In this document: positions 5,112 through 54,949 of the stretch, piece after piece
Layout: every line of letters starts with the position of its first letter
How positions within the stretch are numbered: the stretch's first letter is position 1
Assembly: GCA_037128595.1 (NCBI GenBank)
Contig: JBAXWB010000007.1
Span: forward strand, 96,588 to 160,587
Length of the DNA: 64,000 bases
Reading direction: 5' to 3'
Source: a bacterium
Lineage (GTDB): Bacteria > Verrucomicrobiota > Kiritimatiellia > CAIKKV01 > CAITUY01
Translations under genes and position numbers: made by a program
The notes under the pieces: model-generated
Databases searched by the model: none
Seen by the model: only the letters and a program-made list of their open reading frames with translations
Told to the model about the DNA's origin: nothing

Positions 5112-5146
5112 CGGATGTTCCTTAACGGCTCTCTTTACAGGCCTGG

Positions 5147-6391: not shown

Positions 6392-6456
6392 GATCGGCTC
6401 TTTCCTTCTGGTTATTTCGATTCACTATATGTCGATGGCCACAGGGTTGCCTGGCT

Positions 6457-8902: not shown

Positions 8903-8994
8903 GTGTTATTCCAGGATTCCGTCGGTTTGACACAGCACGGGCTTCTTTGTTATATAGATGTTCAGAAAATTCAGCAAATTCGTCAACTCACAGT

Positions 8995-9020
8995 TTGTGA
9001 TTTTATCGGGTGGTTTGTGA
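8995..9020 (+). promoter_or_regulatory. TTGTGA-N14-TTGTGA direct repeat (site d) in the divergent AraC / FAD-oxidoreductase intergenic region, overlapping the AraC start
   Basis: GTTTGTGAttttatcgggtgGTTTGTGACATGcg; the same architecture recurs at 15107, 21509 and 26584. Confidence 0.55.
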
Positions 9021-9021
9021 C

Positions 9022-9891
9022 ATGCGTGACTTTTTCCTCTATACACGGACGCTTCCCGGACTCCCTCAATTACCCCGGCTGATCTGCGTCGGGCTGGAAA
9101 CCCAAAGCCTGCCCACCTATGGCCAATCCGGCCGAAAGCGCGATGACCGGCCTCATGCCATTTTCCAATACACCATCGCCGGAGAGGGAGTCTTTCGCAA
9201 CGCCTCAGGGACGCATCTGATTAAGCCCGGGTGCGGATTCCTCTGCGAGTCACATGATCCTGAAATCACGTATAGCTATCCCTCTGGGGCGAAAACCCCG
9301 TGGCAGTTTCTCTTTGTCGACATTGCCGGCCGCGCCGCGCATGTTTTTATCCACGATCTGATCAATAAATTCGGGGCCCTCTACGAATTGCCACCCACCC
9401 ACCCGGTCATTGAACGACTCATGGCTTTGCGGGTCTATGATCAAGTCGGATGCCTGCTTTCAGCAACCGAAAATACCCGGTTGGTCCTCGACCTTCTCCA
9501 GGCCTTACTCGCCAGCAAGGAATCCGCACTCGAGAAAAATCCGGATCACGTCCTGATCAAGCGCGTTCACGAGTATATCCAGGCCAAGATGGCTACGCGT
9601 ATTACCGTCAGCTCCCTGGCTGATGATCTGGGTATTTCGCGTGAACACCTGACCCGTGTCTTCACGGCTCAAAGCGGGATGAGCCCCTACCAACACATCC
9701 TGGCCTGTAAGATCGAATGCGCCTGTGGGTTATTGCGCTCCGCCAACCCGCCGTCCATCAAGGAAATCACTTCGCGATTGGGGTTTGACCATGTGGATCA
9801 CTTTACCCGCGCCTTCAAACGCATCACCCACTGTGCTCCCAGGGAATTCAACCGCTTGGGCGTATTACCCACCGCTCACCGGATCAGGTAG
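9022..9891 (+). CDS. AraC family transcriptional regulator (N-terminal ligand-binding domain + C-terminal dual HTH)
   Basis: C-terminal ITVSSLADDLGISREHLTRVFTAQSGMSPYQHILACKIECACGLL...FDHVDHFTRAFKRITHCAPREF is the AraC signature. Track start 9010 is GTG; ATG at 9022 preferred. Confidence 0.8.
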   Translation: MRDFFLYTRTLPGLPQLPRLICVGLETQSLPTYGQSGRKRDDRPHAIFQYTIAGEGVFRNASGTHLIKPGCGFLCESHDPEITYSYPSGAKTPWQFLFVDIAGRAAHVFIHDLINKFGALYELPPTHPVIERLMALRVYDQVGCLLSATENTRLVLDLLQALLASKESALEKNPDHVLIKRVHEYIQAKMATRITVSSLADDLGISREHLTRVFTAQSGMSPYQHILACKIECACGLLRSANPPSIKEITSRLGFDHVDHFTRAFKRITHCAPREFNRLGVLPTAHRIR

Positions 9892-12800
9892 ATCGAGCCC
9901 GCGCCGATTCCAAACGTTGGCGCCAAACCCGTCCGCACCGTAACATCGTCAAGATAGGTTGCCCCTATCCCTGAAAAGATCAACTGACTCATCAGCGTAT
10001 TGGTCTGAACCATATGGAACCAGGAACCGGTTCGTGACAGACTGCCCTGGACCCAACTCCACCCGGCGGGATCCTCGATAGCAGCCGCCTCGTCCACACG
10101 CAACTGGAACAGGTGGTTCGAGTAGTCCTGCGCCACGGTAAACCGGGTCCAGTTTGACGTATCCACCAACGCGGCATGGGATAGCGTCAACCACTCGTTG
10201 GTCGGGGTCCCCGTCATATTCCGGTGCCAGATCACCATCTGGCGATTGGTACTGACGTAGAAGGCATACTGGAGAGTGGCATCGTTGACGGGAAGTTCCG
10301 ACATCGGCACGGGATACATCATGAAATCGAGGTATACCAGTTGCCCGGTTGAACTGTGGATTTCAGTCCGGATGTTGTCGCGCACCAGTAGCGTTTTGGT
10401 ATGGGTGGTCAGGATCGGGGGGCCGGAGAAAGAAGGATAGGGGTCCGCCAACTTGCTGTTCATGGCGGCGTTGTTGGTCACCTGGGCGGCATCGCCATAA
10501 TAGTCCGCCGTCCAGCCGTTCGTCCCCGCCAGCAGGAATCCATTAGGATAGGTTTCAAATGGCTCCTCATAGGGCACCGTGTTGATGAAAACAGTGTCAT
10601 TGATGAAAACCACACTGAAGTTGGTCTGGTAGTTCACCACTTGATCCGCATCAGCCTGGACAAAAGCCCCCTGCTGGAAGGTCAGGGTCATGTTGTAAAC
10701 CGTATCATTCGAGGCATGGGAGGTTGCGGTCCCTGTTAAATTCACACTTAACTGGTTGGCACTGTTGCGGGTGAGCTCAAACACAAGCCCGGCAGGTACG
10801 TTGGAGGTAGTATAGAGACCTGTTAAATCGGACGCAAAACTGTCCCCCGTCAGGGTGATGACCAGCGGGGTCTGGTTATCTATGGCGCCCAGGGAGCGCT
10901 CTGCAAACGTCGCCCGGCTATACGCCAGGCTCGGTGGATTTTTGAATGTAACGGCTAGATTCGTCGTTGACCCATAAATGTTGGCGGCAGCAACGGTCGA
11001 AAACGCCTCATTACTGAAAGTCAGCCGAAGATCGGCCCGTGATTGGCCGCTGGTATGCAACGCCGCCACGTTGGTCAGGGAAAGGGTAACCTGGGTGTCG
11101 CTATCCCGTATCAGACAGAGCCCCAGGCCAGCCGGCACATTCCCAAGGGAATAATGGCCTGTGAGATCGCTGGCAAAGGCCCCGTCAGTCAGGGTCACGG
11201 GCAGGGAATTCCCGATTGACCCGTTATTCCGGGATGACTCGGTGAACTCCAGACCACTGGGCAGGGCCAGGGAGGGCTGGTTGCTGAAAATAATACTGAG
11301 ATCAGTTCGTGACGCTCCCGCCAGCAGGGCCGCATTCCCTCCTGAAAAGGCCGCGTCACCAAAACTAATGGTCACATTATTGAGGCGGCTATCGGAGTTC
11401 AGATGCGCTGTGGCGTTGTTTGAAAAAACCAACACCACGCCGGCCCCGCTGTTGGTGCGGAAGGCATGGAGCTCCAGACCCGGAGGCAAATCTGAAGTCA
11501 CCGCCCCTGCTAAATCATCCCCGTCTAATCCGGCAAAGGTCTCAAAGTGAATAGCCACTACCGTCCCATTGACAGACCCGTCATTGGCTGGCTTTTCAGT
11601 AAAGGTCGTCGTCCCGTAAATCAGTGCCGGGGCATCCATGAATTGCACGGCTATGGCCGCTGTGTAATTGGACACATTTGCCGCCACCACATTGCTGGCA
11701 AATGCGCCCGCTTGAAAGGTCAGGGTCAGGTTGGTGCTGTCGGCACTGGAATTCGCCAGCGCCTTGCCCAGCAGGGTCATTTGCAACTGGGTGTCATTGA
11801 TCTTGCTGACCTGCCCTGTCAACCCCGTCGGCAGGCCGATAATGCTCAACTTGACGCTATTGGTGGCATAATCCTCACCATTATCCCCGGTGAACAGATC
11901 ATTCGTCAGATTGATGGTCAGTGCGGGTGAATTATTGATGGCGCCATCACTCACGCCCGTCATCTCCCGGAACACATTGGTGCTATACGACAGAATTCCG
12001 GTATTCCTGAAAGCAATCGTCCGGTTCCCGCTGGAGGCTCCATCAACACTGCTCGCGGACCCCAACATCAATGCGGAATCAAGAAGCGTGAAGGTCAGGT
12101 CCGAAATGCTGTTGATGGCCTCATTGGATACGGCCTGCCCCGTCAAGGCGATGCTGAGGTGGGTGTCGTTGATCTTGGTCACAACCGCCGTCAGGTTGGA
12201 AGGGAGGTTCCCCACGACATATTTGGTAGCGGCAAATATGCCATCACCGTCTGTAAAGGAGTCATAGCGCAAGCTGACGGTCAGGGGGATGGTATGGTCG
12301 ATGCTCCCATTATTGGTGACACTCTCCGTAAATCCGCCGGCGCTCCACGCAAGGGAGCGATTGGTCACCACAAAATCATCCACATAGTTGGTGCCACCGT
12401 CGCCGAAAATGACCTGCGCCATCAGGGGATTGGTCTGCACCATATAGAACCAGGAGCCAGCCGCCTGCGCCCCGCCTGCCGTGTAGCCCGCCGCGCTGGT
12501 GATCGGATCAGCCCCGTTGACGCGAACCTGAAACATCTTGTTCGAATAATCCTGTACAATCGTAAACCGCGCCCAGGTACCGGTATTGACCAGCGTCCCG
12601 GCGCCTAGGTCCAGCCATTGATTCGTCACCACCGGACTCTTACTGTGCTGCCAGATCACCACATGCTGGTTGGTCTTGATATAGAGCGCCCATTGCACAC
12701 TCGCATCATCCGGCGGATTGAGGTCGCACCAGGTCGGCATGACGGTGAAGTCCAGCACCGCCACTTTCCCGGAGGAACTCAGGATATCATTGTCCAACAA

Positions 12801-13097
12801 ATCCGTCACCGCCACTACATTGGTGTGCGAGGCCAGCGGCAGGGGATAGGCATAGGACTGGGCGTAGGTGTTGGTCAGGGCAAAGACCTGTGACACCGCA
12901 TTCGTGACCAGCCCAGCCCCTATTTTGCCGGATGACCACCCATTAGTTCCCTGAAGCAGCGTCCCACTTGAATAGGATTCAAACGAATCCGCCCACGGCG
13001 CCGAATGAGTGGCGGCCAACCCTGCCGCCGCCCAACCCAGACAAGCCATCAGGAGCGCACTCCGGAAAACCCGCCCTGGCGATGTTTTATTCATCAT
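9876..13097 (-). CDS. giant secreted repeat protein: duplicated N- and C-terminal lectin/LamG-like domains flanking ~90-aa Ig-like repeats
   Basis: Signal peptide MMNKTS...LAATHS. N-terminal domain (ADSFESYSSGTLLQGTNGW...QVRVNGADP...SWFYMVQTNPLMAQVIFGDGGTNYVDDFVV) is clearly paralogous to the C-terminal domain (FETYPNGFLLAGTNGW...QLRVDEAAA...SWFHMVQTNTLMSQLIFSGIGATYLDDVTV). Between them are repeated (L/M)TxxG(Q/K)A...S modules rich in N-x-S/T. Start chosen at ATG 13097. Confidence 0.55.
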   Translation of the reverse strand: MMNKTSPGRVFRSALLMACLGWAAAGLAATHSAPWADSFESYSSGTLLQGTNGWSSGKIGAGLVTNAVSQVFALTNTYAQSYAYPLPLASHTNVVAVTDLLDNDILSSSGKVAVLDFTVMPTWCDLNPPDDASVQWALYIKTNQHVVIWQHSKSPVVTNQWLDLGAGTLVNTGTWARFTIVQDYSNKMFQVRVNGADPITSAAGYTAGGAQAAGSWFYMVQTNPLMAQVIFGDGGTNYVDDFVVTNRSLAWSAGGFTESVTNNGSIDHTIPLTVSLRYDSFTDGDGIFAATKYVVGNLPSNLTAVVTKINDTHLSIALTGQAVSNEAINSISDLTFTLLDSALMLGSASSVDGASSGNRTIAFRNTGILSYSTNVFREMTGVSDGAINNSPALTINLTNDLFTGDNGEDYATNSVKLSIIGLPTGLTGQVSKINDTQLQMTLLGKALANSSADSTNLTLTFQAGAFASNVVAANVSNYTAAIAVQFMDAPALIYGTTTFTEKPANDGSVNGTVVAIHFETFAGLDGDDLAGAVTSDLPPGLELHAFRTNSGAGVVLVFSNNATAHLNSDSRLNNVTISFGDAAFSGGNAALLAGASRTDLSIIFSNQPSLALPSGLEFTESSRNNGSIGNSLPVTLTDGAFASDLTGHYSLGNVPAGLGLCLIRDSDTQVTLSLTNVAALHTSGQSRADLRLTFSNEAFSTVAAANIYGSTTNLAVTFKNPPSLAYSRATFAERSLGAIDNQTPLVITLTGDSFASDLTGLYTTSNVPAGLVFELTRNSANQLSVNLTGTATSHASNDTVYNMTLTFQQGAFVQADADQVVNYQTNFSVVFINDTVFINTVPYEEPFETYPNGFLLAGTNGWTADYYGDAAQVTNNAAMNSKLADPYPSFSGPPILTTHTKTLLVRDNIRTEIHSSTGQLVYLDFMMYPVPMSELPVNDATLQYAFYVSTNRQMVIWHRNMTGTPTNEWLTLSHAALVDTSNWTRFTVAQDYSNHLFQLRVDEAAAIEDPAGWSWVQGSLSRTGSWFHMVQTNTLMSQLIFSGIGATYLDDVTVRTGLAPTFGIGAGSIYLIR

Positions 13098-13138
13098 AAG
13101 CCCCCCGCGAACAAAGACGTCGTGCCCCACAGTGTCAT

Positions 13139-15046
13139 TTACTTAACCATGATCACAAACCCCGTCGCGCGGGGGCGCAATACCAGATTGGTATTCCCCA
13201 CGACCACCATTCGATGTGTCAGGGGAACCCCCTGCCAGTTAGCGGGTGAGCCCCCGGTGATATTGGCGGCCGTGAACAGGGTTAACTGGGTATCCCGGCT
13301 GATGACACTATCCATAACATTCAAGTTGACCGTTGCATTGGTCGGCAGGTTCAGGACGCCCCCCACATTCACCACCACCGCATTACCGGCCGCATTGGTC
13401 GTCCAGTTGAGTGTGGTATTTTCAGCGAGAGTACAGGCCCCTGTAATCGTCACCGCACTGTTTACCACCTCCATGGTGCCGAAGCTGTTTGTCAGCGAGC
13501 CCTCCAAGCGGGCAATAGTATTCGAGAACAGGATTGAGCCGCCCGTCCCGATCGTCACGTTACCACCCCGATAGCAGTTTGTGGCGTTCACCAATTCCAG
13601 CCTTGTGTAGTTAGCGGCACCCGGATTTGAGGCGAAGGTGTAGGTCTGGCCAGACGTTGCATTGGTCGCGTTGTTCAGGCGGAAGGCGTTCTTGCCACCT
13701 GCGGTAAAAGACATATTCGTCAGAGGAGAACCGGCTTGGTTTCCATTCACATCCACTGCTGCCACATCTCGAAAGGCAATTGTTCCCCCATTGATAACAA
13801 CTGGCCCGCCGTTCGTGTTGATCGCAGGAGTAGTCGAACTGTATACACTAAACTGGTAAACCCCACCGGCATTGCTAATGATGTTTCCTCCTCCATTTGG
13901 ACAAAGCAGGGAATTGGCATCCAGGAGACCGCCCGTGACCAGAATGGTATTATTGCTAGCGCCGGCCACATAACCTGCGGTCACCAACGTGCTACCTACC
14001 GTCCTGACTTCCCCCCCTGAAATCGTCAGTGTGCCTTTCGATGTCACACCATTGGTGGGGGAGTTGTCCCCCAACCTGACACTATTGGCAAGCCAAGACC
14101 CGCCAGACAGGGTCAGCGCTCCGACGCCACTGCTTCCAATATAAACACCGGTGGCAGCGGAGCTATCAAGAACCCCGCCTGTGATCACCACAGTACCCGT
14201 GCTACCCGAACTACTGCCTAAAGAAGAAGACGCTAAAACGACGACCGTTCCGCTCCCTGAGATATTCAATCTACCAGATGAACCTGAAGCATTACCAACG
14301 ATCAAACCTTTCATTAACCACGTCCCGCCCGAAACGTTCATCGTGGCATCATTCGCATCTCTGCCGACATACGAAGTGCAGGATCCGTTTGTCGTCACCA
14401 ATACCCCGCCTGTCAAATTAACCATTCCGACGCTCCCGGCAAGTTGGCCGACAGTTAATACACCCACACCGCCGAATAATTCATTGGTTCCCCCGTTCAG
14501 ATTTAGTAGCCCACATGATCCGGAACTATACCCAATAGTCGCCGAGTAACCTACCCAACGCCCACTCGCCACGGTCATCACTCCGGTTCCAGAAAACCCG
14601 ACAGCGGAATATGTGGTACTATTGGACGTTACGAGCAAACCATTATTAGACAGCAGGAGCGATCCACATCGACCGACGGCAGTCCCGACCTGCAGAGGGG
14701 AGACACTTCCTGCGCTCAAAACGAATGGACTGGTATTTCCAGAAATCACTATCGTGTTGGTAGCCCCACCCGGCGCACCGATATATAGGTTGGAATTCAC
14801 AAGGAAGTCTGTGGGCGTATTATTGTCAACCGTAACCGTCTTGCTCACGGCGTTTGTGATGTAGACAAAGTTATTAGACGGCGCGAGTCCCGTTGACCAA
14901 TTCGTTTCGGCACCAAAGCTCCATGCACCACCACTACTACTGGCGTTCGTCCATGTAGTGATCGCCGATTGACACATCCCCGGCGTCAAGATCAACATCA
15001 ACGTTAACCCCAACACGCCACCTCGAACAATAGTTGAATTCCTCAT
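13139..15046 (-). CDS. autotransporter-associated beta-strand repeat (PATR-like) secreted protein
   Basis: Signal peptide after MRNSTIVRGGVLGLTLMLILTPGMCQSA; long run of G/S/T/N-rich GGxxxVxxG beta-strand repeats. No recognisable beta-barrel or PEP-CTERM. ATG 15046 with AGGGGG RBS preferred over GTG 15079. Confidence 0.6.
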   Translation of the reverse strand: MRNSTIVRGGVLGLTLMLILTPGMCQSAITTWTNASSSGGAWSFGAETNWSTGLAPSNNFVYITNAVSKTVTVDNNTPTDFLVNSNLYIGAPGGATNTIVISGNTSPFVLSAGSVSPLQVGTAVGRCGSLLLSNNGLLVTSNSTTYSAVGFSGTGVMTVASGRWVGYSATIGYSSGSCGLLNLNGGTNELFGGVGVLTVGQLAGSVGMVNLTGGVLVTTNGSCTSYVGRDANDATMNVSGGTWLMKGLIVGNASGSSGRLNISGSGTVVVLASSSLGSSSGSTGTVVITGGVLDSSAATGVYIGSSGVGALTLSGGSWLANSVRLGDNSPTNGVTSKGTLTISGGEVRTVGSTLVTAGYVAGASNNTILVTGGLLDANSLLCPNGGGNIISNAGGVYQFSVYSSTTPAINTNGGPVVINGGTIAFRDVAAVDVNGNQAGSPLTNMSFTAGGKNAFRLNNATNATSGQTYTFASNPGAANYTRLELVNATNCYRGGNVTIGTGGSILFSNTIARLEGSLTNSFGTMEVVNSAVTITGACTLAENTTLNWTTNAAGNAVVVNVGGVLNLPTNATVNLNVMDSVISRDTQLTLFTAANITGGSPANWQGVPLTHRMVVVGNTNLVLRPRATGFVIMVK

Positions 15047-15106
15047 TGTTGCCCCCTTTTTACGGTTAAATTTTAGCACTTCTGCAATTCATCACATAGA
15101 GTCATT

Positions 15107-15132
15107 TTGTGACATGCTACGCCAAATTGTGA
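15107..15132 (+). promoter_or_regulatory. TTGTGA-N14-TTGTGA direct repeat (site a), 61 bp upstream of the beta-strand-repeat gene start
   Basis: tTTGTGACATGCTACGccaaATTGTGAc. Confidence 0.55.
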
Positions 15133-15147
15133 CTTGGTATATCACCT

Positions 15148-19278: not shown

Positions 19279-19296
19279 AGTAGGGGTCCCGGTATT

Positions 19297-21432
19297 TTAG
19301 ATATGTCGCCGCTGAAATTCCGAAGGTTTAAGGCTCACATCCATCACGCCCGTCGGCAAATGAAGCTTAAAGTCATGAGAGCGGTCAAAATCGATATTCA
19401 TCAAACAGACCGAGCGATCCTCGGGAAAATAACTGAACATGATATAGTCACACTCGGTGCGAGGCAATAGCCCGTCATCCGTAATGTAAACCGTCCCGCG
19501 CGACTTATTGGCGAGATGCTTGAAAATATAGCCAGGCAGGCCCACGGAGTCCAGCACCGCACTCGGACCCTCATCCCGGTAAAGGGCCCCGGGATAACTC
19601 CACGAATTCAGGAAATAGACCTCGCCCTTTCCGAATTGATGACGGACCATGAGCGGAGAAAAATCCTCATCATCGCAAAGCATCACCTCCACGTCGCCGG
19701 TTATCTCCATCTCCCCCATGCACGTGTGCATGGTGCCGAAACGACGGGGATAGGCAAACTCGAACTGGCTGTTCATCCGGGAAGACTCGGAGGTCGCCCA
19801 ATAGAAACGCTTGCCCCGCCCCTTGACCTTAACCCCGCACAATTCAGAGAAATCACCGCCCCGCACCAGTTCTGTAACGGCATAATTCCCATAATTGCGG
19901 GTTTCATTGGTTGAAAGATGAGGGATCGAGATGAAAATACGCCCTCCCCGCCTAACATACTGCGAGATCAAAGCATATTGTTCTTCCGAACAGGTATTCC
20001 AGCCGGTAAAAATCAAGGTTTGATAATTCTCCACCAGGAAATCGACATCTATTTTCCCGGATAAACTCACGATATCCACGGGTCCGTAAGGGGTCCCTGA
20101 AATATAGCGGTTATAGTATTTCCCGGTAATATTCCGCCTTGGGAAAAAGACTTTCTTGGCGAGATCCCAACCCCGTTCCGGCGCCCCTTCAAACCAGAGC
20201 GGGTTTTGGTCCGCGAGGTTGTAGGCCCCGGCAATAGCCCGGTTGGGATTGAATTCGTCACAACACGTCAACAGGTCAAGGTTCCCTTTAGCTAATGCGA
20301 TCCTCGTCTCCGGCTGTCCCGCTGGGGTCCCGTTCTCCTTTACATAATCATAGAAGTCGGAGATTTCCTGCCGGTACCGCCGGGCGTGCGGCGAGTCGTA
20401 GTTAATGGTGTGATAGTGACGACGGGCCTCGTCCACGTAATCAGCCGAACGATTGTAATCATTTTTCCGCCCGGGTTGATGCAACTTTGGCATTTCAGTC
20501 ACCATCGGGGAATCCTCACAGAGATTTGACTGCAAGTACCAGTTCCCGCATTCATTGATCAACATTTTCGAGCCTGACATGTACTTGATATACATGCCGT
20601 TCCGGAACGATTCAAACCGGTATTTACAGCTATAGGGCAACCACGCATACCACTCGTGATTCATATGGGTGCCCCACCCCGCCAGGCCATATTGCCGGGC
20701 AAGGCCCCGACACAGCGCCGAGGCCATATTGTCGGCATAATCTTCAAACAGCGGAAATTCTATGCCGGCCTGAATCTCGTAATCCACGGCAAATGAGCCG
20801 CCGGTCGACATCAGCATCCCCCACCCCGCCTGATGATATTCATCGCACTTCGCCTTGACGGTGGCCCGGAAACCGTCAGCAAGCTGACTGAGCTTCACCC
20901 CTTCGGCGGCGCTGATCGATGTCAGGGACTCGTCAAACCGGAATGTAAATATCTCCCCGAAATCGGAGCCAAGATACCTGTCGCCAAAGCGCGAAAGCAT
21001 TTCAGAATATTTCTTTTCTGCGTGGGAATAGATGACCATGGAATACAAGTTCTTTTCTGCCGCCTTTTCAATGAAATCAATCATCCCTTCGCCGAAACGC
21101 GCATCACTCTTCGCAATTTCAGGCCAATCCCCCGGGGAGAGCATCTTCCGGTTTTTCCAGTCTGGCTGCGGAATGTCGACGCCGTCCTTAAACATCCCTC
21201 GCCACCAGGCCGCCGCCTTCAATTGGCTGCCAAGACAGTTTGGCCAAAGCTGGACAATGTTCCCCTGGTTCTCTTCGATCGTCTTGTCCAAATACCATTC
21301 CGGCGCATGATCCTCAGGGTTCCAACAGGTGAACAGGCGTCCAAGTCCGATGGTGTAATCGGCAAAAGACACATAGATGGCTGAGCCAATGAATATTCCG
21401 CACGGAGGCAACCGTAATATTCTGTCCGACAT
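19297..21432 (-). CDS. hypothetical 711-aa protein (no signal peptide)
   Basis: ATG with GGGAGAGAG RBS; first gene of an operon with the 1376-aa protein; no recognised motifs. Confidence 0.5.
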   Translation of the reverse strand: MSDRILRLPPCGIFIGSAIYVSFADYTIGLGRLFTCWNPEDHAPEWYLDKTIEENQGNIVQLWPNCLGSQLKAAAWWRGMFKDGVDIPQPDWKNRKMLSPGDWPEIAKSDARFGEGMIDFIEKAAEKNLYSMVIYSHAEKKYSEMLSRFGDRYLGSDFGEIFTFRFDESLTSISAAEGVKLSQLADGFRATVKAKCDEYHQAGWGMLMSTGGSFAVDYEIQAGIEFPLFEDYADNMASALCRGLARQYGLAGWGTHMNHEWYAWLPYSCKYRFESFRNGMYIKYMSGSKMLINECGNWYLQSNLCEDSPMVTEMPKLHQPGRKNDYNRSADYVDEARRHYHTINYDSPHARRYRQEISDFYDYVKENGTPAGQPETRIALAKGNLDLLTCCDEFNPNRAIAGAYNLADQNPLWFEGAPERGWDLAKKVFFPRRNITGKYYNRYISGTPYGPVDIVSLSGKIDVDFLVENYQTLIFTGWNTCSEEQYALISQYVRRGGRIFISIPHLSTNETRNYGNYAVTELVRGGDFSELCGVKVKGRGKRFYWATSESSRMNSQFEFAYPRRFGTMHTCMGEMEITGDVEVMLCDDEDFSPLMVRHQFGKGEVYFLNSWSYPGALYRDEGPSAVLDSVGLPGYIFKHLANKSRGTVYITDDGLLPRTECDYIMFSYFPEDRSVCLMNIDFDRSHDFKLHLPTGVMDVSLKPSEFQRRHI

Positions 21433-21508
21433 AGCGACACTCTCTCCCTGTCAGTTATTCTGACTCCCTTGATCGTCACACGCCATAACCGGGCGAACAA
21501 GTCGCCAT

Positions 21509-21534
21509 TTGTGACATGTTGCGCTGTATTGTGA
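21509..21534 (+). promoter_or_regulatory. TTGTGA-N14-TTGTGA direct repeat (site b), 77 bp upstream of the 711-aa gene
   Basis: aTTTGTGACATGTTGCGctgtATTGTGAc. Confidence 0.55.
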
Positions 21535-21561
21535 CATAGAACGGGACAAGAGATCAGCACC

Positions 21562-23247
21562 TCACCCTGCAGACGAAGAGGTACTTCTGTCCCGATCGGC
21601 ATCTTGCGGTATGACAGGTAGAATCAGTCGCGATGGGTATTCCCGCGAATGGTAAACCATCTGGACCGATTCCTGTAGTTCAGCTTCATCGCCCGCCGTC
21701 CTGCCGGTATTCGGGTTACGGGAATAATGAGGAAAATTGCTTCCGGCAATTTCCAGCCGGACGCCATGCCCCTGCATGAAGACATAGGCGGTTACATCCA
21801 CTTCAAAACTGAATTCATATACGGTACCGGGGTTCATCAGTTGCGGCTCCTTTTCGATTCCGCCGCGGAAACGTGCCCGCATGATCCCGTCACAGACATT
21901 ATACGGCCTTCCGTCAGGATACACATCCACCAGCTTGACGGCAAAATCAGCATCAGGCGTTGAGGCGGCGGCGAAAAGCGTAACGGACACAGGACCGGTT
22001 ACCTCCATCGGTTGTTCCAATGGCGGCAAGGTGTAAACCAGCACATCCTGTCTATTTTCGATATCAGACTGGTCGCGTTGCCCCGCATTTCCCACCCCGC
22101 GACCGCCACAGGTAGGGACCGGGTTTTGAGGGTCACTGATAAAGATATCCGGCGGACACTCATTCCCGTCAAGCTTGAACCGGCTCAGACGCCCATCCCC
22201 GCTCGCTGTATTGGCATGCCCATTGCCCCCGAGATAAAAAGGAGTCCAGTTCGTCCGCTTAAGCGGCCATTCATTCTCAAACCGCCATTTGTTTTCGCCC
22301 ATGACGAAAATCTGGAGAGGCGACGGATTCCCAGCTGATTCCGGGACCTGGCCTTTCAATAAGCATGTCAGGAAGTCGATTTCATGGTCTTCAGTAACGA
22401 GGGCAGCCGGGCCATAATCCAATTCACCCTCCTTGACATTAACCCCATGCCCCCAAGGGCCGATTCTCAAGCAAGAATACTTTTGACGCGGGGTTGAAGC
22501 AATGCCCGGGCTGTTGATGATTTCACTGAAAAAGGTAAACACTTTTGAGCCGATATGGTCGAACCAGCTATTCTGAAGAAATACGCCTACCTCGGTATCC
22601 CGGAAGCGGATTTTACTGGTTTTTTCTTTCCAATAGTTGTCCCTGCCATCGTGAGCCACAATCTCTTTCCATGAGGGACAAGGAATGCCGGCCTCGTCGT
22701 CTAACGAGGAAAGCGGTGTTTTCTTCAATAGTTCCGGCCAGTCTGGCAAAAGAGTCCCTTCGCTTTTGCGTTGTGTCATCCCCACATGCCAGGCGAGCAT
22801 GAAAGCCAACGTCAATACTCCATGGGTGTAATACACCGAGTAAAGATCGTTCTGAATGGCGGACGGCGCGATCGCTTTGAGTGCGGGATGCCGGCTGGCC
22901 GCCGCCGCCAACTGGGTAAAGCCGGCGTAGGAGCCTCCCACCATGCCGATATTGCCGTCACACCACGACTGTCCCTGTATCCACTCAAGCAGCGCATAGG
23001 CATCATCCTGCTCATTCACCCATGGCGTGAAATTACCACCAGACTTAAACCGGCCTCGACAATCCGCACATACAAAGGCAAACCCGTGCCCGGCCCACTT
23101 CATCGCAGCTGGAAGATGACCACTGGTGACATCATAGGGGGACAGGAGCAGGACGACAGGGTACGCCCTGGCGTCATCGGGAGGCAGATACACATTGCAC
23201 GTCAACTTCACGCCATCGCGCATGATTACTGGTTCATCAGTGATCAT
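21562..23247 (-). CDS. CocE/NonD family hydrolase (X-Pro dipeptidyl-peptidase S15-like alpha/beta hydrolase)
   Basis: GMVGGSYAG nucleophile elbow; PYDVTSG ... VCADCRG typical of CocE/NonD. Start taken at ATG 23247 (MITDEPVIMRDGVKL) rather than the upstream track start. Confidence 0.7.
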   Translation of the reverse strand: MITDEPVIMRDGVKLTCNVYLPPDDARAYPVVLLLSPYDVTSGHLPAAMKWAGHGFAFVCADCRGRFKSGGNFTPWVNEQDDAYALLEWIQGQSWCDGNIGMVGGSYAGFTQLAAAASRHPALKAIAPSAIQNDLYSVYYTHGVLTLAFMLAWHVGMTQRKSEGTLLPDWPELLKKTPLSSLDDEAGIPCPSWKEIVAHDGRDNYWKEKTSKIRFRDTEVGVFLQNSWFDHIGSKVFTFFSEIINSPGIASTPRQKYSCLRIGPWGHGVNVKEGELDYGPAALVTEDHEIDFLTCLLKGQVPESAGNPSPLQIFVMGENKWRFENEWPLKRTNWTPFYLGGNGHANTASGDGRLSRFKLDGNECPPDIFISDPQNPVPTCGGRGVGNAGQRDQSDIENRQDVLVYTLPPLEQPMEVTGPVSVTLFAAASTPDADFAVKLVDVYPDGRPYNVCDGIMRARFRGGIEKEPQLMNPGTVYEFSFEVDVTAYVFMQGHGVRLEIAGSNFPHYSRNPNTGRTAGDEAELQESVQMVYHSREYPSRLILPVIPQDADRDRSTSSSAG

Positions 23248-24718
23248 TTTTTGAATCCTCAGAAAGGGGCCTACTTTCCCCATGGAACACGCACGCCTCT
23301 CCACCGCGTTTCTTCCATTCCTTGTATACCATGGCGAGCAATATCAAACCCAAGCTAGCGAAAAAAAGTTGCCAGCCCGGAATTAACCGGTAACAGAAGT
23401 CTTGCCCGTAGATCATATCCGGGTAAATCCGCCGCATCCGATCGATGTACAGGCCCCCGATGATACCTGAGGCCACACCGACCAGCGCGGTACAAATTGC
23501 CAGAAACGAACAGAACTGGCCAAATTGCTCACGGGGGAAGAGGCGCATGTAAAGCGGCATGAGCGTTGCGGCATAGATTTGCCAGAAGATCACACTAATG
23601 ACGTTCAAACTCAAAAGGATCTTGAAATTAACGGATGGCTCGAAATGGGTGAACAGCCACACGAAGTTGAGCGGCATCCAGATGACCATCCCCAGCTTCA
23701 GCCACACCATCACCCGCATGGGATGGAACCGGTCCGCCAGCATTCCCGCCGGATAGGCCAGCAACCCTGTCGCCACACTCGTAATACCGGCAAGGATCCC
23801 GATTTGTGCCAGCGTGAGGCCCAATGACAAATACATGAACACAAGGAATGCGGCACAAGCCGAGGCCAGGGTCCACACCATGGTATGCAGGTAAAGGAGC
23901 ACGAATAACTTCTGATGGAGACACTCCTTCACATAGACGCGTATCCTGGCCAGGGAGCCATCACCCACCGGGCGCGAGGAAGGAGGGGGATACTCCCCTT
24001 CTTTCACGCGGAAACACATCATCACAAATCCGACGCAATACAGTAAGCCGGCCACTACAAAAATAACCCTCATGTGGGTCAGCGCGTGCTGGAAAACGAA
24101 AAATTCATAGAGCGCGCCCCCAGCCAGGCCTACCACACGGGCCAAGGCAAGGAAACGGGCAATCACCTCCCGCGGAACCACATCGTTGAAAAAATAGTAG
24201 AACAGCGTACTGATGAATAATTCAGCAATCCGGAATAGAGCAATAACGGCACCAATCACCCCGATGGTAATGGCACTCAAGCTTAACCCGGTTGCCCGCC
24301 CAAGCCCGAGATCGTACAAACCCCGTCCAATTTCTGGGAAAAACCCCATTACACACAGGAGGATCCCGATAAATGGCGAGGCGATCAGCATAAAAGGACG
24401 GCGCCTGCCCCACGAACTGCGATAACGGTCACTGGCGGTACTGATCAACGGATTGAGGAGCAAGTTGAGAATCTGGGGTAGACTCACCATGACGGCGCCG
24501 ATCACCCAGTTTGGCGCCTGAAGTTCCTTGATCTTCAGGGGGATAATGCTGGCCCACACCTTCTCCATGATGACGAAACAGAAGTCGCCCCATAGCAGCC
24601 AGAAGAACAGCGTGACCAGCCCGGCGGCCGTATAGGTCAGCGTGCCGGCCTGGTACGTTTTACAAGGTACCCCGTCAGCGGATGCCGAAGGACCCTCGGG
24701 TGTCAGCGGGCTATTCAT
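23237..24718 (-). CDS. MFS transporter, glycoside-pentoside-hexuronide (GPH) cation symporter family
   Basis: About 12 TM segments; DRYRSSWGRRRPF, the GPH family D-R-x-x-x-x-G-R-R-R-P signature. Confidence 0.75.
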   Translation of the reverse strand: MNSPLTPEGPSASADGVPCKTYQAGTLTYTAAGLVTLFFWLLWGDFCFVIMEKVWASIIPLKIKELQAPNWVIGAVMVSLPQILNLLLNPLISTASDRYRSSWGRRRPFMLIASPFIGILLCVMGFFPEIGRGLYDLGLGRATGLSLSAITIGVIGAVIALFRIAELFISTLFYYFFNDVVPREVIARFLALARVVGLAGGALYEFFVFQHALTHMRVIFVVAGLLYCVGFVMMCFRVKEGEYPPPSSRPVGDGSLARIRVYVKECLHQKLFVLLYLHTMVWTLASACAAFLVFMYLSLGLTLAQIGILAGITSVATGLLAYPAGMLADRFHPMRVMVWLKLGMVIWMPLNFVWLFTHFEPSVNFKILLSLNVISVIFWQIYAATLMPLYMRLFPREQFGQFCSFLAICTALVGVASGIIGGLYIDRMRRIYPDMIYGQDFCYRLIPGWQLFFASLGLILLAMVYKEWKKRGGEACVFHGESRPLSEDSKNDH

Positions 24719-24726
24719 AATCAGGA

Positions 24727-26538
24727 CTATTCAGCGACCGGGGCCCTGCTTTTCTTGCGCTTTATACCCAACCCTGATTCCGCGATCTCGCCTTTGCAGT
24801 TATCAACCATCACATCGATATCCGGACCTTTTGCCTCGTATACGATGGAACAATCGCTGAACTCACAGTTTTTGAAGTGAACCAGACGGGTGTCGCTGTC
24901 GGCAATGAAGTGCACATTTGTGAGATTGCAGTCCACGAAACTGAAATAGGTTCCCTTGATCCGCTTGACGTCGTTAAGGGTTTCGTGTTCGAACCTGAGA
25001 GGACGCGTTTCAACGGACTTCGCCGGCGTGTGGACGAAGCCGTCATTAAATCCCTTGGGATCAAATATGATAGAGAGGGTCTGGAATTTTTCGTAAAGAT
25101 TTCCCTGCATACTGGCAACGCCCGTCCGTGTCTTGAAGCCGGTGTCGCCCATGAAATGGTTCTTACGGAAGGTATAGTTGTGCGTACGGCCCCACACGTA
25201 CACATTCTTCTCGAATTGATTCCCTTCAAATATCATCTCACTCCCGGCGCAAACCACGAGGTCGCCCTTGCGGTTGTCCTTGAAGGTGTTGTTCCTGAAC
25301 ACGACATCCTGCATAAAGTCCCACCCATCTTCAAAATCGATACCACACCCCGGTGCGGTACCCCCGTTTCCTTCAAATCGGTTTTCCTCGATGAGCCATC
25401 GCTGCCCCCCGCAAAACGCGAAGCCCAACCGCCTGTTGCCCGCGAGAATGTTATGATGAAAATGCACGTCCATCGGGGGGCGGGAACTGAGAACGGCCCC
25501 GTAGAGTGAAGGAGCTTCAGGGCCTTTGGCCTCAGGCTGATTAAATTCCAAACGAACGAATTTCCCGCCTTCCGGTATCGCTGTTTTCTTAAACTGAATA
25601 CAGGATTTCTTCTGAAGGAACTTCATATCCTTGTCATAGAAGCATGCCTGATAATACCGATCCATCACCGCCGGATAACTCATATACCCGAACATGAACC
25701 CGAACTCGAGTTCCCCATTGAATTCCTCACCCGGCAGTTCATAGGGTTTTATCGTCCGCGTCTTCAGTGCATCCGGCTCCGGTACGCCGGCGTTTGAAAG
25801 GGCACCCTGTTCAAGGTTTTTCGCCATCACCTTCAGACAGCGCTTGGCGTCCTTGAACGGAAGACCGGCATTGGAACGGATGCCATCGCCGGTACAATTG
25901 GTGACGGTGACATGATCGACCTCCAAATTGACGCCTCCATCGAAGACCAGACCGCACCCCCACTCGTGCGTCCCCGGCACGGTCTTGTAGTCATGTGACT
26001 CCTTGTCCCCGCACAGTCGGCCGTTAGTAAGTCTGACATTTTCAGCCCCGTGCTCAAACCTGAAGATGGCATATTTCGGGAGCCCGTTTGGATTGATCCT
26101 GAACGTTGCCCCATTCAGGTCAATGATCATATCCTTGTTGATGATCACCACCGGGTTTGACTCGCCAATCAGGTAGGTCCCGGGCGGAAATACAATCCGA
26201 TTGGCTCCTGCCGCCTGAGCCTCCCGAAGGGCCAGGTTGATTCCTTGCGAGGTTTCAACAGGATTTGTGGCATTGCAGCTGATGTGAAATTTATCGAGGT
26301 CAATGCGGTATTCCCGGGTATGCTTCGAGTCGTCCGCCGTCGCTTTCGGGGTTTTAGTAATCGCGACCGGCGTCGCTTTCAAGTTCCCATGATAGGCCCC
26401 GTCCATTTTGCCGTTTCGGGCTTCTTCAGGCACCCACTCGTACTTGTTTTCCGAACTGAAGCAAGGATGGACGAGCACACATGCCGCCATGAGTGCTGTG
26501 ATAATGGCCTCTTTTGCTTTTTCAGGAAGGGTTAACAT
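24727..26538 (-). CDS. right-handed parallel beta-helix repeat protein (pectate-lyase-fold glycoside hydrolase / polysaccharide lyase candidate)
   Basis: Signal peptide MLTLPEKAKEAIITALMAACVLVHP (start moved to ATG 26538). Repeated NxxxxN/GxxG beta-helix rungs: HFHHNILAGNRRLGFAFCGGQ, NNTFKDNRKGDLVV, GNQFEKNVYVWG. Confidence 0.6.
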   Translation of the reverse strand: MLTLPEKAKEAIITALMAACVLVHPCFSSENKYEWVPEEARNGKMDGAYHGNLKATPVAITKTPKATADDSKHTREYRIDLDKFHISCNATNPVETSQGINLALREAQAAGANRIVFPPGTYLIGESNPVVIINKDMIIDLNGATFRINPNGLPKYAIFRFEHGAENVRLTNGRLCGDKESHDYKTVPGTHEWGCGLVFDGGVNLEVDHVTVTNCTGDGIRSNAGLPFKDAKRCLKVMAKNLEQGALSNAGVPEPDALKTRTIKPYELPGEEFNGELEFGFMFGYMSYPAVMDRYYQACFYDKDMKFLQKKSCIQFKKTAIPEGGKFVRLEFNQPEAKGPEAPSLYGAVLSSRPPMDVHFHHNILAGNRRLGFAFCGGQRWLIEENRFEGNGGTAPGCGIDFEDGWDFMQDVVFRNNTFKDNRKGDLVVCAGSEMIFEGNQFEKNVYVWGRTHNYTFRKNHFMGDTGFKTRTGVASMQGNLYEKFQTLSIIFDPKGFNDGFVHTPAKSVETRPLRFEHETLNDVKRIKGTYFSFVDCNLTNVHFIADSDTRLVHFKNCEFSDCSIVYEAKGPDIDVMVDNCKGEIAESGLGIKRKKSRAPVAE

Positions 26539-26583
26539 GCCGCTTATTCTTCCACGTCTCTTCAGGGCACACAAGACTCCCAT

Positions 26584-26609
26584 TTGTGACATGTTACGGT
26601 GAATTGTGA
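26584..26609 (+). promoter_or_regulatory. TTGTGA-N14-TTGTGA direct repeat (site c), 46 bp upstream of the beta-helix gene start
   Basis: aTTTGTGACATGTTACGgtgaATTGTGAt. Confidence 0.55.
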
Positions 26610-26625
26610 TGACCCTCGCTTTTAT

Positions 26626-26946: not shown

Positions 26947-27022
26947 CCTGTGATCGTGCCCTCCTACGCCCTGCGGCTTCGCCTTGTGCTTCGCAGGGCA
27001 TCCTTCGCTCGGCGCCTATGGC

Positions 27023-27070: not shown

Positions 27071-27071
27071 A

Positions 27072-52058: not shown

Positions 52059-52080
52059 TGCCTACATGCCCTTGCACCCC

Positions 52081-54946: not shown

Positions 54947-54949
54947 GTT

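What the first reader, a model, noticed from the sequence alone, without database searches (positions are those of the whole stretch)
8995..26609. Conserved TTGTGA-N14-TTGTGA direct-repeat motif in four promoters of the giant-secreted-protein locus; putative AraC regulon
Four intergenic regions carry the same architecture, two TTGTGA half-sites exactly 20 bp apart: site a at 15107, b at 21509, c at 26584, d at 8995. Sites a-c also share the spacer TTGTGACATG(C/T)T(A/G)CG...ATTGTGA. They sit 46-77 bp upstream of the first genes of three minus-strand operons. Site d lies in the divergent AraC / FAD-oxidoreductase region and overlaps the AraC start codon. Direct repeats about two helical turns apart are the typical binding mode of AraC/XylS dimers. 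This ties the oxidoreductase operon and about 17 kb of giant secreted proteins, a hydrolase and a sugar transporter into one regulon.
Basis: seen in the sequence. Interest (0 to 1): 0.7.

Follow-up and report, generated by a model that had tools for sequence, protein, structure and literature searches.

The report
AraC-type operator repeated at four promoters
A 33-bp direct-repeat DNA motif found four times next to an AraC-family regulator gene is very probably that regulator's binding site, and the same motif sits beside more than 100 related regulator genes in Lentisphaerota and other PVC bacteria. It is a real but conventional sugar-utilisation switch.

Summary
TTGTGA-N14-TTGTGA occurs exactly four times in 64 kb (8995, 15107, 21509, 26584), against none in 100 shuffles. 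All four copies are on the + strand, in intergenic DNA, and upstream of minus-strand genes.

- The motif tracks one AraC subfamily. In 1.27 Mb around about 145 homologues (29-98% identity), a matrix built from it finds 130 sites and none in shuffles.
- 112 of the 130 sites lie just upstream of the regulator gene, on its sense strand, and often end 1-7 nt before its ATG, exactly as site d does.
- The 20-bp period is sharp. The unit is CAWT-N3-TGAYAT.
- A TTG (-35) and an A/T-rich -10 are conserved on the opposite strand, with the TTG starting 8 bp from the core. This is the geometry of an AraC/XylS-type activator at a divergent promoter.
- Orthologous regulators (46-56% identity) carry the motif in front of homologues of the window's 711-aa and 1376-aa genes. 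Loci that hold those genes without this AraC lack the motif.
- The 711-aa protein models as a GH42-like glycosidase.

Verdict: a new regulator-operator pair of a well-known kind. No binding or expression data exist, and the inducer is unknown.

The parts
9022..9891 (+). AraC/XylS-family regulator gene (289 aa): N-terminal cupin-type AraC_binding domain and a C-terminal DNA-binding domain with two helix-turn-helix motifs. The predicted recognition helices are SREHLTRVF (residues 206-214) and HVDHFTRAFK (about residues 257-266).
   Evidence: Pfam hits HTH_18 at 6.8e-21, HTH_AraC, and AraC_binding at 26.4 bits against a cut-off of 21.1. The gene is called identically on the source contig. Alignment to MarA maps the helices. 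The protein reaches no NCBIfam equivalog cut-off. It is the only subfamily member in the window.
8991..9023 (+). Site d: CAGT TTG TGATTT ... TTTG TGACAT, with core 8995-9020. It lies in the 119-bp divergent region between the FAD-oxidoreductase gene (ATG 8902, minus strand) and araC (ATG 9022). This is the family-typical position. I propose it activates the leftward promoter and autoregulates araC.
   Evidence: Exact match; matrix score 22.2 bits. The same position and orientation are seen in 112 of 130 family sites. It is conserved in L005 (98% identical AraC), L006 (74%), L007 (51%) and L008 (42%).
8958..8986 (-). Predicted sigma-70-type promoter of the oxidoreductase operon: -35 TTGACG (8986-8981), 17-bp spacer, -10 GAACAT (8963-8958), with the transcription start near 8951. 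This is an inference.
   Evidence: Read from the sequence. The geometry matches the family-wide conserved TTG at positions -8 to -10 and the A/T block at -30 to -33 on the opposite strand.
15103..15135 (+). Site a: CATT TTG TGACAT GCTACGC CAAA TTG TGACTT, with core 15107-15132. It lies in the 101-bp gap between the stop of the 1376-aa gene (15148) and the ATG of the 635-aa gene (15046).
   Evidence: Exact match; matrix score 24.4 bits. It is conserved in L005 at 9510. Predicted promoter: -35 CTATGT (15099-15094), -10 TAAAAT (15075-15070), then an AGGGGG ribosome-binding site before ATG 15046 (inference).
21505..21537 (+). Site b, with core 21509-21534. It lies in the 129-bp gap between the stop of the CocE/NonD hydrolase gene (21562) and the ATG of the 711-aa gene (21432).
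   Evidence: Exact match; matrix score 12.2 bits. Predicted promoter: -35 TTGTTC (21500-21495), -10 GACGAT (21477-21472) (inference). Homologues of the downstream genes lie behind the same motif in L007 and L004.
26580..26612 (+). Site c, with core 26584-26609, 46 nt upstream of ATG 26538 of the beta-helix protein gene, which is the first gene of the cluster.
   Evidence: Exact match; matrix score 9.2 bits. Predicted promoter: -35 TTGTGT (26574-26569), -10 AAGAAT (26551-26546). That would put the transcription start at or next to the ATG, so the mRNA may be leaderless (inference).
4488..8902 (-). Transcription unit behind site d: FAD-dependent oxidoreductase (7661-8902), two GFO/IDH/MocA oxidoreductases (6457-7668 and 5147-6391) and a GDSL esterase (4488-5111).
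   Evidence: Pfam; gene calls on the source contig. A homologue of the second GFO/IDH/MocA oxidoreductase (5147-6391), 81% identical, is divergent from the AraC orthologue in L006, with the motif between them.
9876..15046 (-). Transcription unit behind site a: a 635-aa protein and a 1084-aa protein, both with signal-peptide-like N-termini and no recognisable domains.
   Evidence: No hits in Pfam or NCBIfam. Orthologues occur only in L005, plus a C-terminal fragment in L002.
15148..21432 (-). Transcription unit behind site b: a 711-aa protein with a predicted GH42/GH164-like three-domain glycosidase fold and no signal peptide, and a 1376-aa secreted protein of unknown fold.
   Evidence: AlphaFold2 model with pLDDT 91 and pTM 0.92. 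Foldseek matches to beta-1,2-glucosyltransferase 7vkw, GH42 galactosidases, GH164 mannosidase and exo-glucosaminidases at E 1e-15 to 1e-19, TM about 0.5, about 10% identity. The family is widespread and has no Pfam domain.
21562..26538 (-). Transcription unit behind site c: a right-handed beta-helix protein (24727-26538), an MFS transporter matching MFS_1 and MFS_2, the Pfam MFS/sugar-transport family (23237-24718), and a CocE/NonD-family hydrolase (21562-23304).
   Evidence: Pfam and NCBIfam. An MFS homologue, 67% identical, lies in the AraC-adjacent cluster of L002.

Best explanation
The four motifs are operators of the AraC-family regulator encoded at 9022-9891.

Site architecture. Each site holds two direct-repeat units with a 20-bp period. 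The family consensus unit is CAWT-N3-TGAYAT. In this clade it reads (C)AnT-TTG-TGAYAT, which explains TTGTGA-N14-TTGTGA. I propose that two regulator subunits, probably a dimer held by the N-terminal cupin domain, each bind one unit through their two helix-turn-helix motifs.

Activation. All sites are oriented so that the promoter-proximal unit ends about 4 bp before a -35-like TTG hexamer on the opposite strand. That places the regulator at roughly -40 to -76, the AraC/XylS class-II-like position. When loaded with an unknown, probably glycan-derived effector, the regulator would recruit RNA polymerase to four leftward promoters:
- an oxidoreductase/esterase operon (site d);
- the beta-helix / MFS / CocE-NonD unit (site c);
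- the GH42-like 711-aa / 1376-aa unit (site b);
- the 635-aa / 1084-aa unit (site a).

Autoregulation. The distal unit of site d abuts the regulator's own start codon, so occupancy should also autoregulate araC, most likely negatively.

What is shown and what is inferred. Shown in silico: the motif is not chance; it is associated with this regulator subfamily; its spacing, orientation and promoter geometry are fixed; some targets are conserved. Inferred: physical binding, activation rather than repression, dimer stoichiometry, the effector, and the sign of autoregulation.
For: Not chance:
- Four exact sites against none in 100 shuffles.
- No other matrix hit above 6.1 bits in 64 kb.

Association with the regulator subfamily:
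- In 722 kb around AraC homologues, spacing N14 gives 13 exact and 16 one-mismatch matches. Every other spacing from N8 to N23 gives at most 1 exact and at most 5 one-mismatch matches.
- 99 of 138 non-redundant regions upstream of araC carry a site of at least 12 bits, against 1 of 2760 shuffles; 95 of the 99 are on the araC sense strand.
- 130 sites occur in 1.27 Mb and none in shuffles; 112 are immediately upstream of araC.
- A seed-free 6-mer enrichment that excluded the window ranks TGTGAT, TTGTGA and TGATAT at the top (about 50% of regions against about 3% background, p down to 1e-56). It shows a sharp 20-nt spacing peak of 38 against 5 or fewer at other spacings.

Promoter geometry:
- Conserved CAA at -10 to -8 (the TTG of a -35 on the opposite strand) and an A/T block at -30 to -33.
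- The upstream neighbour is divergent in 64 loci and co-directional in 2.
- A -35/-10 pair starts at -8 or -9 in 42 of 108 loci.
- By eye, the four window sites fit the same geometry.

Conserved targets:
- In L007 (51% identical AraC) the motif is followed by a 711-aa homologue and then a 1376-aa homologue.
- In L004 (56% identical AraC) two motifs, in the target orientation, precede operons, one of which contains a 711-aa homologue.
- In L006 the motif lies between araC and a GFO/IDH/MocA homologue.

Negative controls:
- 117 kb of Lentisphaerae-type loci that carry 59-81% identical 711-aa homologues, but GntR-type regulators, an unrelated AraC or no regulator instead, have no credible site.

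Regulator:
- The protein has the AraC two-helix-turn-helix DNA-binding domain and a cupin domain.
- The helix-3 sequence SREH..R..F is invariant in the 13-sequence alignment A2 (41-74% identical to the window protein), matching the invariant TGA core of the motif.
Against: - There is no binding, transcript-start or expression data. The source is a metagenome contig from an uncultured Lentisphaerota-like organism.
- Paralogues only 29-40% identical to this AraC share the same core motif. DNA sequence alone therefore cannot prove that sites a-c are read by this paralogue rather than by another one elsewhere in the genome.
- The loci were retrieved with peptide patterns that include the helix-3 sequence SREH[LF][TS]R[VI]F. 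Invariance of that helix across those loci is therefore partly built in.
- The matrix was refined on the same upstream regions it was scored on. Shuffles, the spacing scan and the seed-free k-mer test mitigate this.
- The -10 elements predicted in the window are weak (GAACAT, GACGAT, AAGAAT), the generic promoter scan did not flag them, and the promoter consensus of this phylum has not been established.
- Sites a and b sit in short gaps inside a co-directional 17-kb cluster with no convincing terminators, so they may only modulate a longer transcript.
- L002 (74% identical AraC) keeps only one half-site.
Confidence: 0.8

Rival explanations
1. The same protein binds the same sites, but it acts mainly as a repressor or roadblock at all four sites, and is relieved by the effector, rather than as a class-II-type activator.
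For: - Site d abuts the regulator's own start codon, as do 56 of 95 family sites that end 0-20 nt before the araC ATG. That position is typical of autorepression.
- Sites a and b lie between co-directional genes with no clear terminators, where a bound protein could block read-through.
Against: - The fixed orientation, with a conserved -35-like TTG 8 bp from the core and a -10-like block 16-17 bp further on, is the classic activator arrangement and places the protein upstream of the polymerase.
- In the window the -35 hexamers are poor in three of the four promoters, as expected for activator-dependent promoters.
- From established knowledge, most sugar-responsive AraC/XylS members are activators.
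Confidence: 0.12
2. The motif is read by a different factor, either another paralogue of the same subfamily encoded elsewhere in the genome or a shared global regulator. The adjacent AraC would then be only one of its targets.
For: - The core (TGA ... TGTGA at a 20-bp period) is shared by paralogues only about 30% identical to this AraC.
- Six paralogues, 67-81% identical to each other, from one metagenome have almost identical operators. Cross-recognition is therefore plausible.
Against: - Across more than 100 loci with varied gene content, the only constant neighbour of the motif is a member of this AraC subfamily.
- The motif disappears when the target genes are paired with GntR-type regulators.
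- The window clade has its own signature, TTGTGA in both halves, shared by the 49-98% identical orthologues.
- Direct repeats argue against the LacI-type protein in the window and against CRP-type factors.
Confidence: 0.06
3. The motif is not a regulator site. It is either a promoter (TTGAYA as -35 and GAYATT as -10 on the + strand), the remains of a repeat or mobile element, or chance.
For: In 49 of 108 family sites the two half-sites themselves pass a relaxed -35/-10 test on the araC sense strand.
Against: - In the window the hexamers are 14 bp apart, not 16-18 bp.
- At sites a-c they point away from every gene.
- In site d the would-be -10 overlaps the ATG of a conserved N-terminus (M-R/H-D-F-F-L-Y), so transcripts would start inside the coding sequence.
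- Only about 33 bp are similar between copies, with no terminal repeats and no similarity in the flanks.
- Chance is excluded.
Confidence: 0.02

Closest known systems
E. coli AraC with araI1-araI2 at pBAD, and its autoregulatory site araO1 (from established knowledge)
   Same: - The regulator has an N-terminal cupin domain and a C-terminal DNA-binding domain with two helix-turn-helix motifs.
- It is encoded divergently from its target operon.
- Its operator is two direct-repeat units about two helical turns apart.
- The promoter-proximal unit adjoins the -35.
- It has an additional role in autoregulation.
- It is a sugar-catabolism regulon.
   Different: - The DNA-binding domain is only about 25-30% identical to solved AraC-family domains, and the protein falls far below the NCBIfam AraC equivalog cut-off (47.9 against 208 bits).
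- The period is 20 bp, not 21 bp.
- The unit sequence (CAWT-N3-TGAYAT) is unrelated.
- The same pair of units serves both the divergent promoter and the regulator's own start region, and no distal O2-type looping site was found.
- There are four promoters in one 18-kb cluster.
XylS / Pm operator of the Pseudomonas TOL plasmid (TGCA-N6-GGNTA, two direct repeats at a 21-bp period; from established knowledge)
   Same: The units are bipartite and repeated directly at about two helical turns. The proximal unit touches the -35, and the activator depends on an effector.
   Different: The sequence is different and the period is 20 bp. The regulator gene is adjacent and divergent, with the operator on its start codon. 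The taxon is different (PVC superphylum).
MarA/SoxS/Rob and the marbox (from established knowledge; structures 1bl0 and 1xs9 matched)
   Same: The DNA-binding domain has the same fold, and the recognition helices can be aligned. The idea that several paralogues recognise one degenerate core sequence applies to both.
   Different: MarA is a monomer without a ligand domain and binds a single 20-bp box. Here there are two phased units and a full-length two-domain protein.

Membership tests
AraC/XylS family of transcription regulators (protein) | A C-terminal DNA-binding domain of about 100 aa with two helix-turn-helix motifs | tested here: met
   Pfam HTH_18 at 6.8e-21 (74.8 bits, cut-off 33.6) and HTH_AraC in two stretches. 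PDB matches to MarA, XylR, AraC and RamA DNA-binding domains. Alignment to MarA covers both helices.
AraC/XylS family of transcription regulators (protein) | An N-terminal effector-binding and dimerisation domain of the AraC cupin type, which distinguishes two-domain members from MarA-like monomers | tested here: met
   Pfam AraC_binding at 26.4 bits, above the cut-off of 21.1 (E 6e-6), covering residues 39-116. Dimerisation itself was not tested.
A characterised orthologous group (AraC, RhaS/RhaR, MelR, XylS-like, FeaR and others) | Score above the curated NCBIfam equivalog cut-off | tested here: not met
   The best hits reach 61 bits against a cut-off of 200 and 47.9 against 208 (AraC). All 31 matching families are far below their cut-offs. 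This is an uncharacterised subfamily.
AraC/XylS-type operator | Two or more direct-repeat units with a fixed period of about two helical turns | tested here: met
   The period is exactly 20 bp in all four window sites. At family level the spacing peak is at N14, or 20 nt start to start.
AraC/XylS-type operator | Each unit is bipartite, with one sub-element for each of the two helix-turn-helix motifs | tested here: inconclusive
   CAWT and TGAYAT recur in both units. Their centres are only about 8 bp apart. An alternative grouping, TGAYAT-N7-CAWT with about 12 bp between centres, cannot be excluded without footprinting.
AraC/XylS-type operator | The promoter-proximal unit adjoins or overlaps the -35 of the activated promoter, in a fixed orientation | tested here: met
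   A TTG is conserved 8 bp from the core on the opposite strand, with a -10-like block 16-17 bp further on. The window sites fit. The test is in silico only, with no transcript-start data.
AraC/XylS-type operator | Physical binding by the cognate regulator and transcription that depends on an effector | not testable with these tools
   This needs EMSA, DAP-seq or footprinting, and reporter or RNA-seq experiments.
CRP/FNR-type site (TGTGA-N6-TCACA) | An inverted repeat of TGTGA with a 6-bp spacer | tested here: not met
   Both TGTGA copies are on the same strand, 20 bp apart, with no inverted partner.
The motif as a sigma-70 promoter | Hexamers 16-18 bp apart, oriented toward a gene, with the transcript start upstream of the start codon | tested here: not met
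   The spacer is 14 bp. Sites a-c point away from all genes. In site d the would-be -10 overlaps the araC ATG.

The most novel reading that the evidence does not exclude
The operator core (TGA ... TGTGA at a 20-bp period) and the recognition helix SREH..R..F are shared by a large, expanded AraC subfamily across Lentisphaerota, Kiritimatiellia, Phycisphaerae and Verrucomicrobiota. Its paralogues might therefore cross-bind one another's operators and form a marbox-like, phylum-wide network that coordinates glycan-utilisation loci. In addition, the strictly conserved placement of the operator 1-7 nt before the regulator's ATG might reflect an unusual autoregulatory mechanism, such as a leaderless araC mRNA whose start lies inside the operator.
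Probability: 0.15. Interest if true: 0.55.

Novelty: new member of a known kind. Interest (0 to 1): 0.4.

Why it matters
- **First regulatory handle.** It gives a concrete, testable regulatory code (operator matrix, regulator, promoter geometry) for an uncultured Lentisphaerota-type organism and for an AraC subfamily spread through the PVC superphylum. I found no described transcription-factor motif for these groups in three full-text searches.
- **Function of unknown genes.** It links a set of genes without recognisable domains into one unit that is probably glycan-responsive. These are three large secreted proteins and a widespread 720-aa family with a GH42-like fold and no Pfam domain. The link narrows the search for their substrate.
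- **Annotation.** The matrix can be used to annotate similar regulons in metagenomes.
- **Limit.** The mechanism is conventional AraC/XylS biology and does not change any concept.

Tried and rejected
- **One-mismatch site at 57503-57528.** Rejected as chance. It scores below 6 bits with the matrix, lies inside a type I restriction-modification locus, and about 0.3 such matches are expected.
- **Generic promoter and terminator scan of 8800-27200.** The counts were no higher than in shuffles, and nothing was flagged at the four sites, so it was uninformative.
- **First neighbour classification.** With ORFs of at least 120 aa it suggested 39 co-directional upstream neighbours. Stricter ORFs of at least 200 aa gave 64 divergent against 2 co-directional, so the first figure was an artefact of spurious ORFs.
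- **The motif as the araC promoter.** Considered because the half-sites resemble TTGACA and GATATT. Rejected because the start codon follows within 1-7 nt in most loci.
- **A separate araC promoter in the window.** TTGACA at 8927-8932, then 17 nt, then TTATAT at 8950-8955 is a candidate, but family-level support is weak, so it stays a suggestion.
- **The four large proteins.** Pfam, NCBIfam and PDB sequence searches found nothing. Only the structure prediction of the 711-aa protein was informative.
- **Literature.** Searches for AraC together with Lentisphaerae, Victivallis, Kiritimatiella or Phycisphaerae found no description of the motif.
- **L002 (74% identical AraC).** It keeps only the half-site at the ATG. 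Its target operon's promoter lies beyond the DNA I retrieved.
- **Not tried.** I did not retrieve the remaining roughly 57 kb of the source contig, and I did not analyse co-variation between helix-6 residues and the variable motif positions.


Full report
**1. Observation**

TTGTGA-N14-TTGTGA occurs exactly four times in the 64-kb window, at 8995, 15107, 21509 and 26584, always on the + strand. None of 100 dinucleotide-preserving shuffles has a match. Single hexamers are only slightly enriched, 41 against 30 expected. Sites a-c share TTGTGACATG(C/T)T(A/G)CG-N4-ATTGTGA.

All four sites are intergenic and lie upstream of minus-strand genes:

| Site | Core | Distance to start codon | Downstream gene |
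|---|---|---|---|
| a | 15107-15132 | 61 nt to ATG 15046 | 635-aa protein |
| b | 21509-21534 | 77 nt to ATG 21432 | 711-aa protein |
| c | 26584-26609 | 46 nt to ATG 26538 | beta-helix protein |
| d | 8995-9020 | 93 nt to ATG 8902 | FAD-dependent oxidoreductase |

Site d also ends 1 nt before the ATG (9022) of the divergent AraC gene.

**2. Genes**

- The protein encoded at 9022-9891 is a two-domain AraC/XylS regulator, with Pfam HTH_18, HTH_AraC and AraC_binding. It reaches no curated NCBIfam equivalog cut-off and is the only member of its subfamily in the window.
- Behind site d lie a FAD-dependent oxidoreductase, two GFO/IDH/MocA oxidoreductases and a GDSL esterase.
- Behind site c lie a right-handed beta-helix protein, an MFS transporter (MFS_1/MFS_2) and a CocE/NonD hydrolase.
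- Behind site b lie a 711-aa and a 1376-aa protein. Behind site a lie a 635-aa and a 1084-aa protein. None of these four has a Pfam, NCBIfam or PDB sequence match.
- The 711-aa protein belongs to a widespread family of about 720 aa with no domain annotation. An AlphaFold2 model (pLDDT 91, pTM 0.92) has the three-domain architecture of GH42 beta-galactosidases, GH164 mannosidase, exo-glucosaminidases and a beta-1,2-glucosyltransferase. Foldseek gives E 1e-15 to 1e-19, TM about 0.5 and about 10% identity. The cluster therefore looks like a glycan-utilisation locus.
- The window comes from ENA metagenome contig ERZ4224321 NODE_130. The nearest AraC relatives in genomes, at 49-52% identity, are in Lentisphaerales/Lentisphaerae MAGs.

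**3. Comparative evidence that the motif belongs to the regulator**

*Orthologues.* I fetched contigs that encode homologues of the AraC protein. The motif reappears next to them in different gene arrangements:

| Locus | AraC identity | Where the motif lies |
|---|---|---|
| L005 | 98% | Equivalents of sites d and a |
| L006 | 74% | ATGTGA-N14-TTGTGA between araC and a divergent GFO/IDH/MocA gene |
| L004 | 56% | Three phased half-sites after the araC stop and in front of the next operon, plus a second pair in front of a PKD-protein gene; both on the strand opposite to the + strand targets |
| L007 | 51% | An exact copy between araC and a divergent gene |
| L008 | 42% | TAGTGA-N14-TTGTGA between araC and a divergent GH4 gene |

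The orientation relative to the target gene is the same as in the window.

*Wider family.* Two collection scans with an alignment of the orthologues brought in 160 more loci. They come from Lentisphaerota, Victivallales, Kiritimatiellia, Phycisphaerae/Planctomycetota and Verrucomicrobiota.

- In the first 722 kb, spacing N14 gives 13 exact and 16 one-mismatch matches. Each other spacing from N8 to N23 gives at most 1 exact and at most 5 one-mismatch matches.
- An iteratively refined matrix finds a site of at least 12 bits in 99 of 138 non-redundant araC upstream regions, against 1 of 2760 shuffles. 95 of the 99 are on the araC sense strand, and 56 of those 95 end 0-20 nt before the ATG.
- Across 1.27 Mb there are 130 sites and none in shuffles. 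112 of them are immediately upstream of the subfamily gene.
- A seed-independent 6-mer enrichment that excluded the window and its near-identical relatives gives TGTGAT, TTGTGA, TTTGTG and TGATAT as the top words, with p down to 1e-56. It also shows a sharp 20-nt spacing peak.

*Negative controls.* Loci with 59-81% identical homologues of the 711-aa gene carry GntR-type regulators, an unrelated AraC or no regulator instead of this subfamily. Across 117 kb of such loci there is no credible site.

The motif therefore follows the regulator gene, not the target genes and not the taxon.

**4. Anatomy**

The family consensus is CAWT-N3-TGAYAT repeated at a 20-bp period. The elements sit at positions -3 to 0, 4-9, 17-20 and 24-29, counting the first T of the first TTGTGA as position 1. 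The window's clade (49-98% identical regulators) has TTGTGA in both halves.

Outside the repeat two further conserved features appear. One is CAA at -10 to -8. The other is an A/T block at -30 to -33. Read on the opposite strand, these are the TTG of a -35 hexamer starting 8 bp from the core, and a TAww -10 element 16-17 bp further on.

With reliable ORFs, the upstream neighbour is divergent in 64 loci and co-directional in 2. A -35/-10 pair starts at exactly -8 or -9 in 42 of 108 loci.

The four window sites fit this geometry:

| Site | -35 | -10 |
|---|---|---|
| d | TTGACG | GAACAT |
| a | CTATGT | TAAAAT |
| b | TTGTTC | GACGAT |
| c | TTGTGT | AAGAAT |

These were read by eye and are inferences. 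The regulator would therefore sit at roughly -40 to -76 of leftward promoters, which is the AraC/XylS arrangement.

**5. Mechanism proposed**

Two subunits bind the two units, each through two helix-turn-helix motifs. Helix 3 (SREHLTRVF) is invariant in the 13-sequence alignment A2 and in the further loci checked, as is the TGA core. With an effector bound, the regulator activates four promoters.

Site d, the ancestral position, lies on the regulator's own translation start and should autoregulate it. A possible araC promoter (TTGACA at 8927-8932, 17-nt spacer, TTATAT) would put the operator at about +28 to +60 of the araC transcript. That favours autorepression, but family-level support for this promoter is weak.

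**6. Regulon conservation**

- In L007 the motif is followed by a 711-aa homologue (46% identical) and then a 1376-aa homologue (31%).
- In L004 the operon behind the motif contains a 711-aa homologue (47%).
- In L006 the divergent gene is 81% identical to the window's second GFO/IDH/MocA oxidoreductase (5147-6391).
- L002 holds MFS (67% identical) and 1084-aa C-terminal homologues (70%) in the cluster next to its AraC.

The window is the only locus retrieved with three or more strong sites.

**7. Caveats**

- There is no experimental evidence of any kind.
- The collection scans used peptide patterns that include the helix-3 sequence, which biases the set toward regulators sharing that helix.
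- The matrix was trained and scored on overlapping data. Shuffles, the spacing scan and the k-mer test control for this.
- Start codons and ORFs were estimated crudely.
- The promoter consensus of this phylum is assumed, not known.
- Paralogues share the core. Six paralogues, 67-81% identical to each other, from one metagenome have nearly identical operators. Assigning sites a-c to this particular paralogue therefore rests on adjacency and on the clade-specific TTGTGA signature.

**8. Comparison and novelty**

Functionally and architecturally this is an AraC/XylS-type regulator-operator pair. It resembles AraC with araI1-I2 and XylS with Pm in these respects:
- direct repeats about two helical turns apart;
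- a proximal unit at the -35;
- a divergent regulator gene;
- autoregulation.

It is not a member of any characterised orthologous group. I found no description of the motif in three full-text searches.

I rate it a new member of a known kind. The finding is real and well supported, useful for annotating PVC glycan-utilisation loci, and mechanistically conventional. Interest is 0.4.

Noticed in passing
window 26626-27147: An 80-aa GIY-YIG nuclease-domain ORF (26704-26946, minus strand) is flanked by direct repeats of 17 nt (26626-26642 and 27023-27039) and 33 nt (26671-26703 and 27038-27070). It lies immediately beside tRNA-Gly(TCC) at 27072-27147. This looks like a small GIY-YIG element inserted with duplication of the region 3' of the tRNA.
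   Followed up: partly
window 19297-21432: The 711-aa protein belongs to a widespread family of about 720 aa. At least 350 clusters reach E of 1e-5 or better, and the members listed are 46-94% identical to it. It occurs in Lentisphaerota, Verrucomicrobiota, Abditibacteriota and Acidobacteriota and has no Pfam domain. It models confidently as a three-domain glycosidase of the GH42/GH164 type, so it is a candidate for an undescribed glycoside hydrolase family.
   Followed up: partly
window 9876-19278: Three large proteins with signal-peptide-like N-termini (1084, 635 and 1376 aa) have no match in Pfam, NCBIfam or PDB sequences. The 1084-aa protein appears internally repetitive.
   Followed up: partly
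window 50946-60472: A defence-island-like stretch. It holds a type I restriction-modification system (HsdR-like at 57938-60472 and a fused methylase/specificity protein at 54950-57481, with a 23S-rRNA-IVP family gene between them), two proteins with the CTD10 domain of ABC-three-component (ABC-3C) systems, one of which also has DUF2326, and a Tle1-like phospholipase.
   Followed up: no
window 57503-57528: TTCTGA-N14-TTGTGA, a one-mismatch match to the motif, lies 22 nt upstream of the methylase gene's ATG. It has a low matrix score and is probably chance.
   Followed up: yes
L029, L030, L032, L033, L044, L055 (metagenome Ga0074199): Six AraC paralogues, 67-81% identical to each other and on separate contigs of one metagenome, have almost identical operators (CAATAnTTGATATTAATTACCAnnTTGTGA). 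Several carry a third phased unit 20 bp upstream. This raises the question of how paralogues are told apart.
   Followed up: partly
L022, L105, L106, L108: These loci hold tandem pairs of subfamily genes with one operator between them, in the target orientation, 72 nt upstream of the second gene. One paralogue may therefore control the next.
   Followed up: no
window 47351-48943: A 530-aa protein has an N-terminal LacI-type helix-turn-helix motif but is far longer than usual LacI-family proteins. It has no link to the motif.
   Followed up: no
window 9876-9891: The 3' ends of araC (+ strand) and the 1084-aa gene (minus strand) overlap convergently by 16 bp.
   Followed up: no
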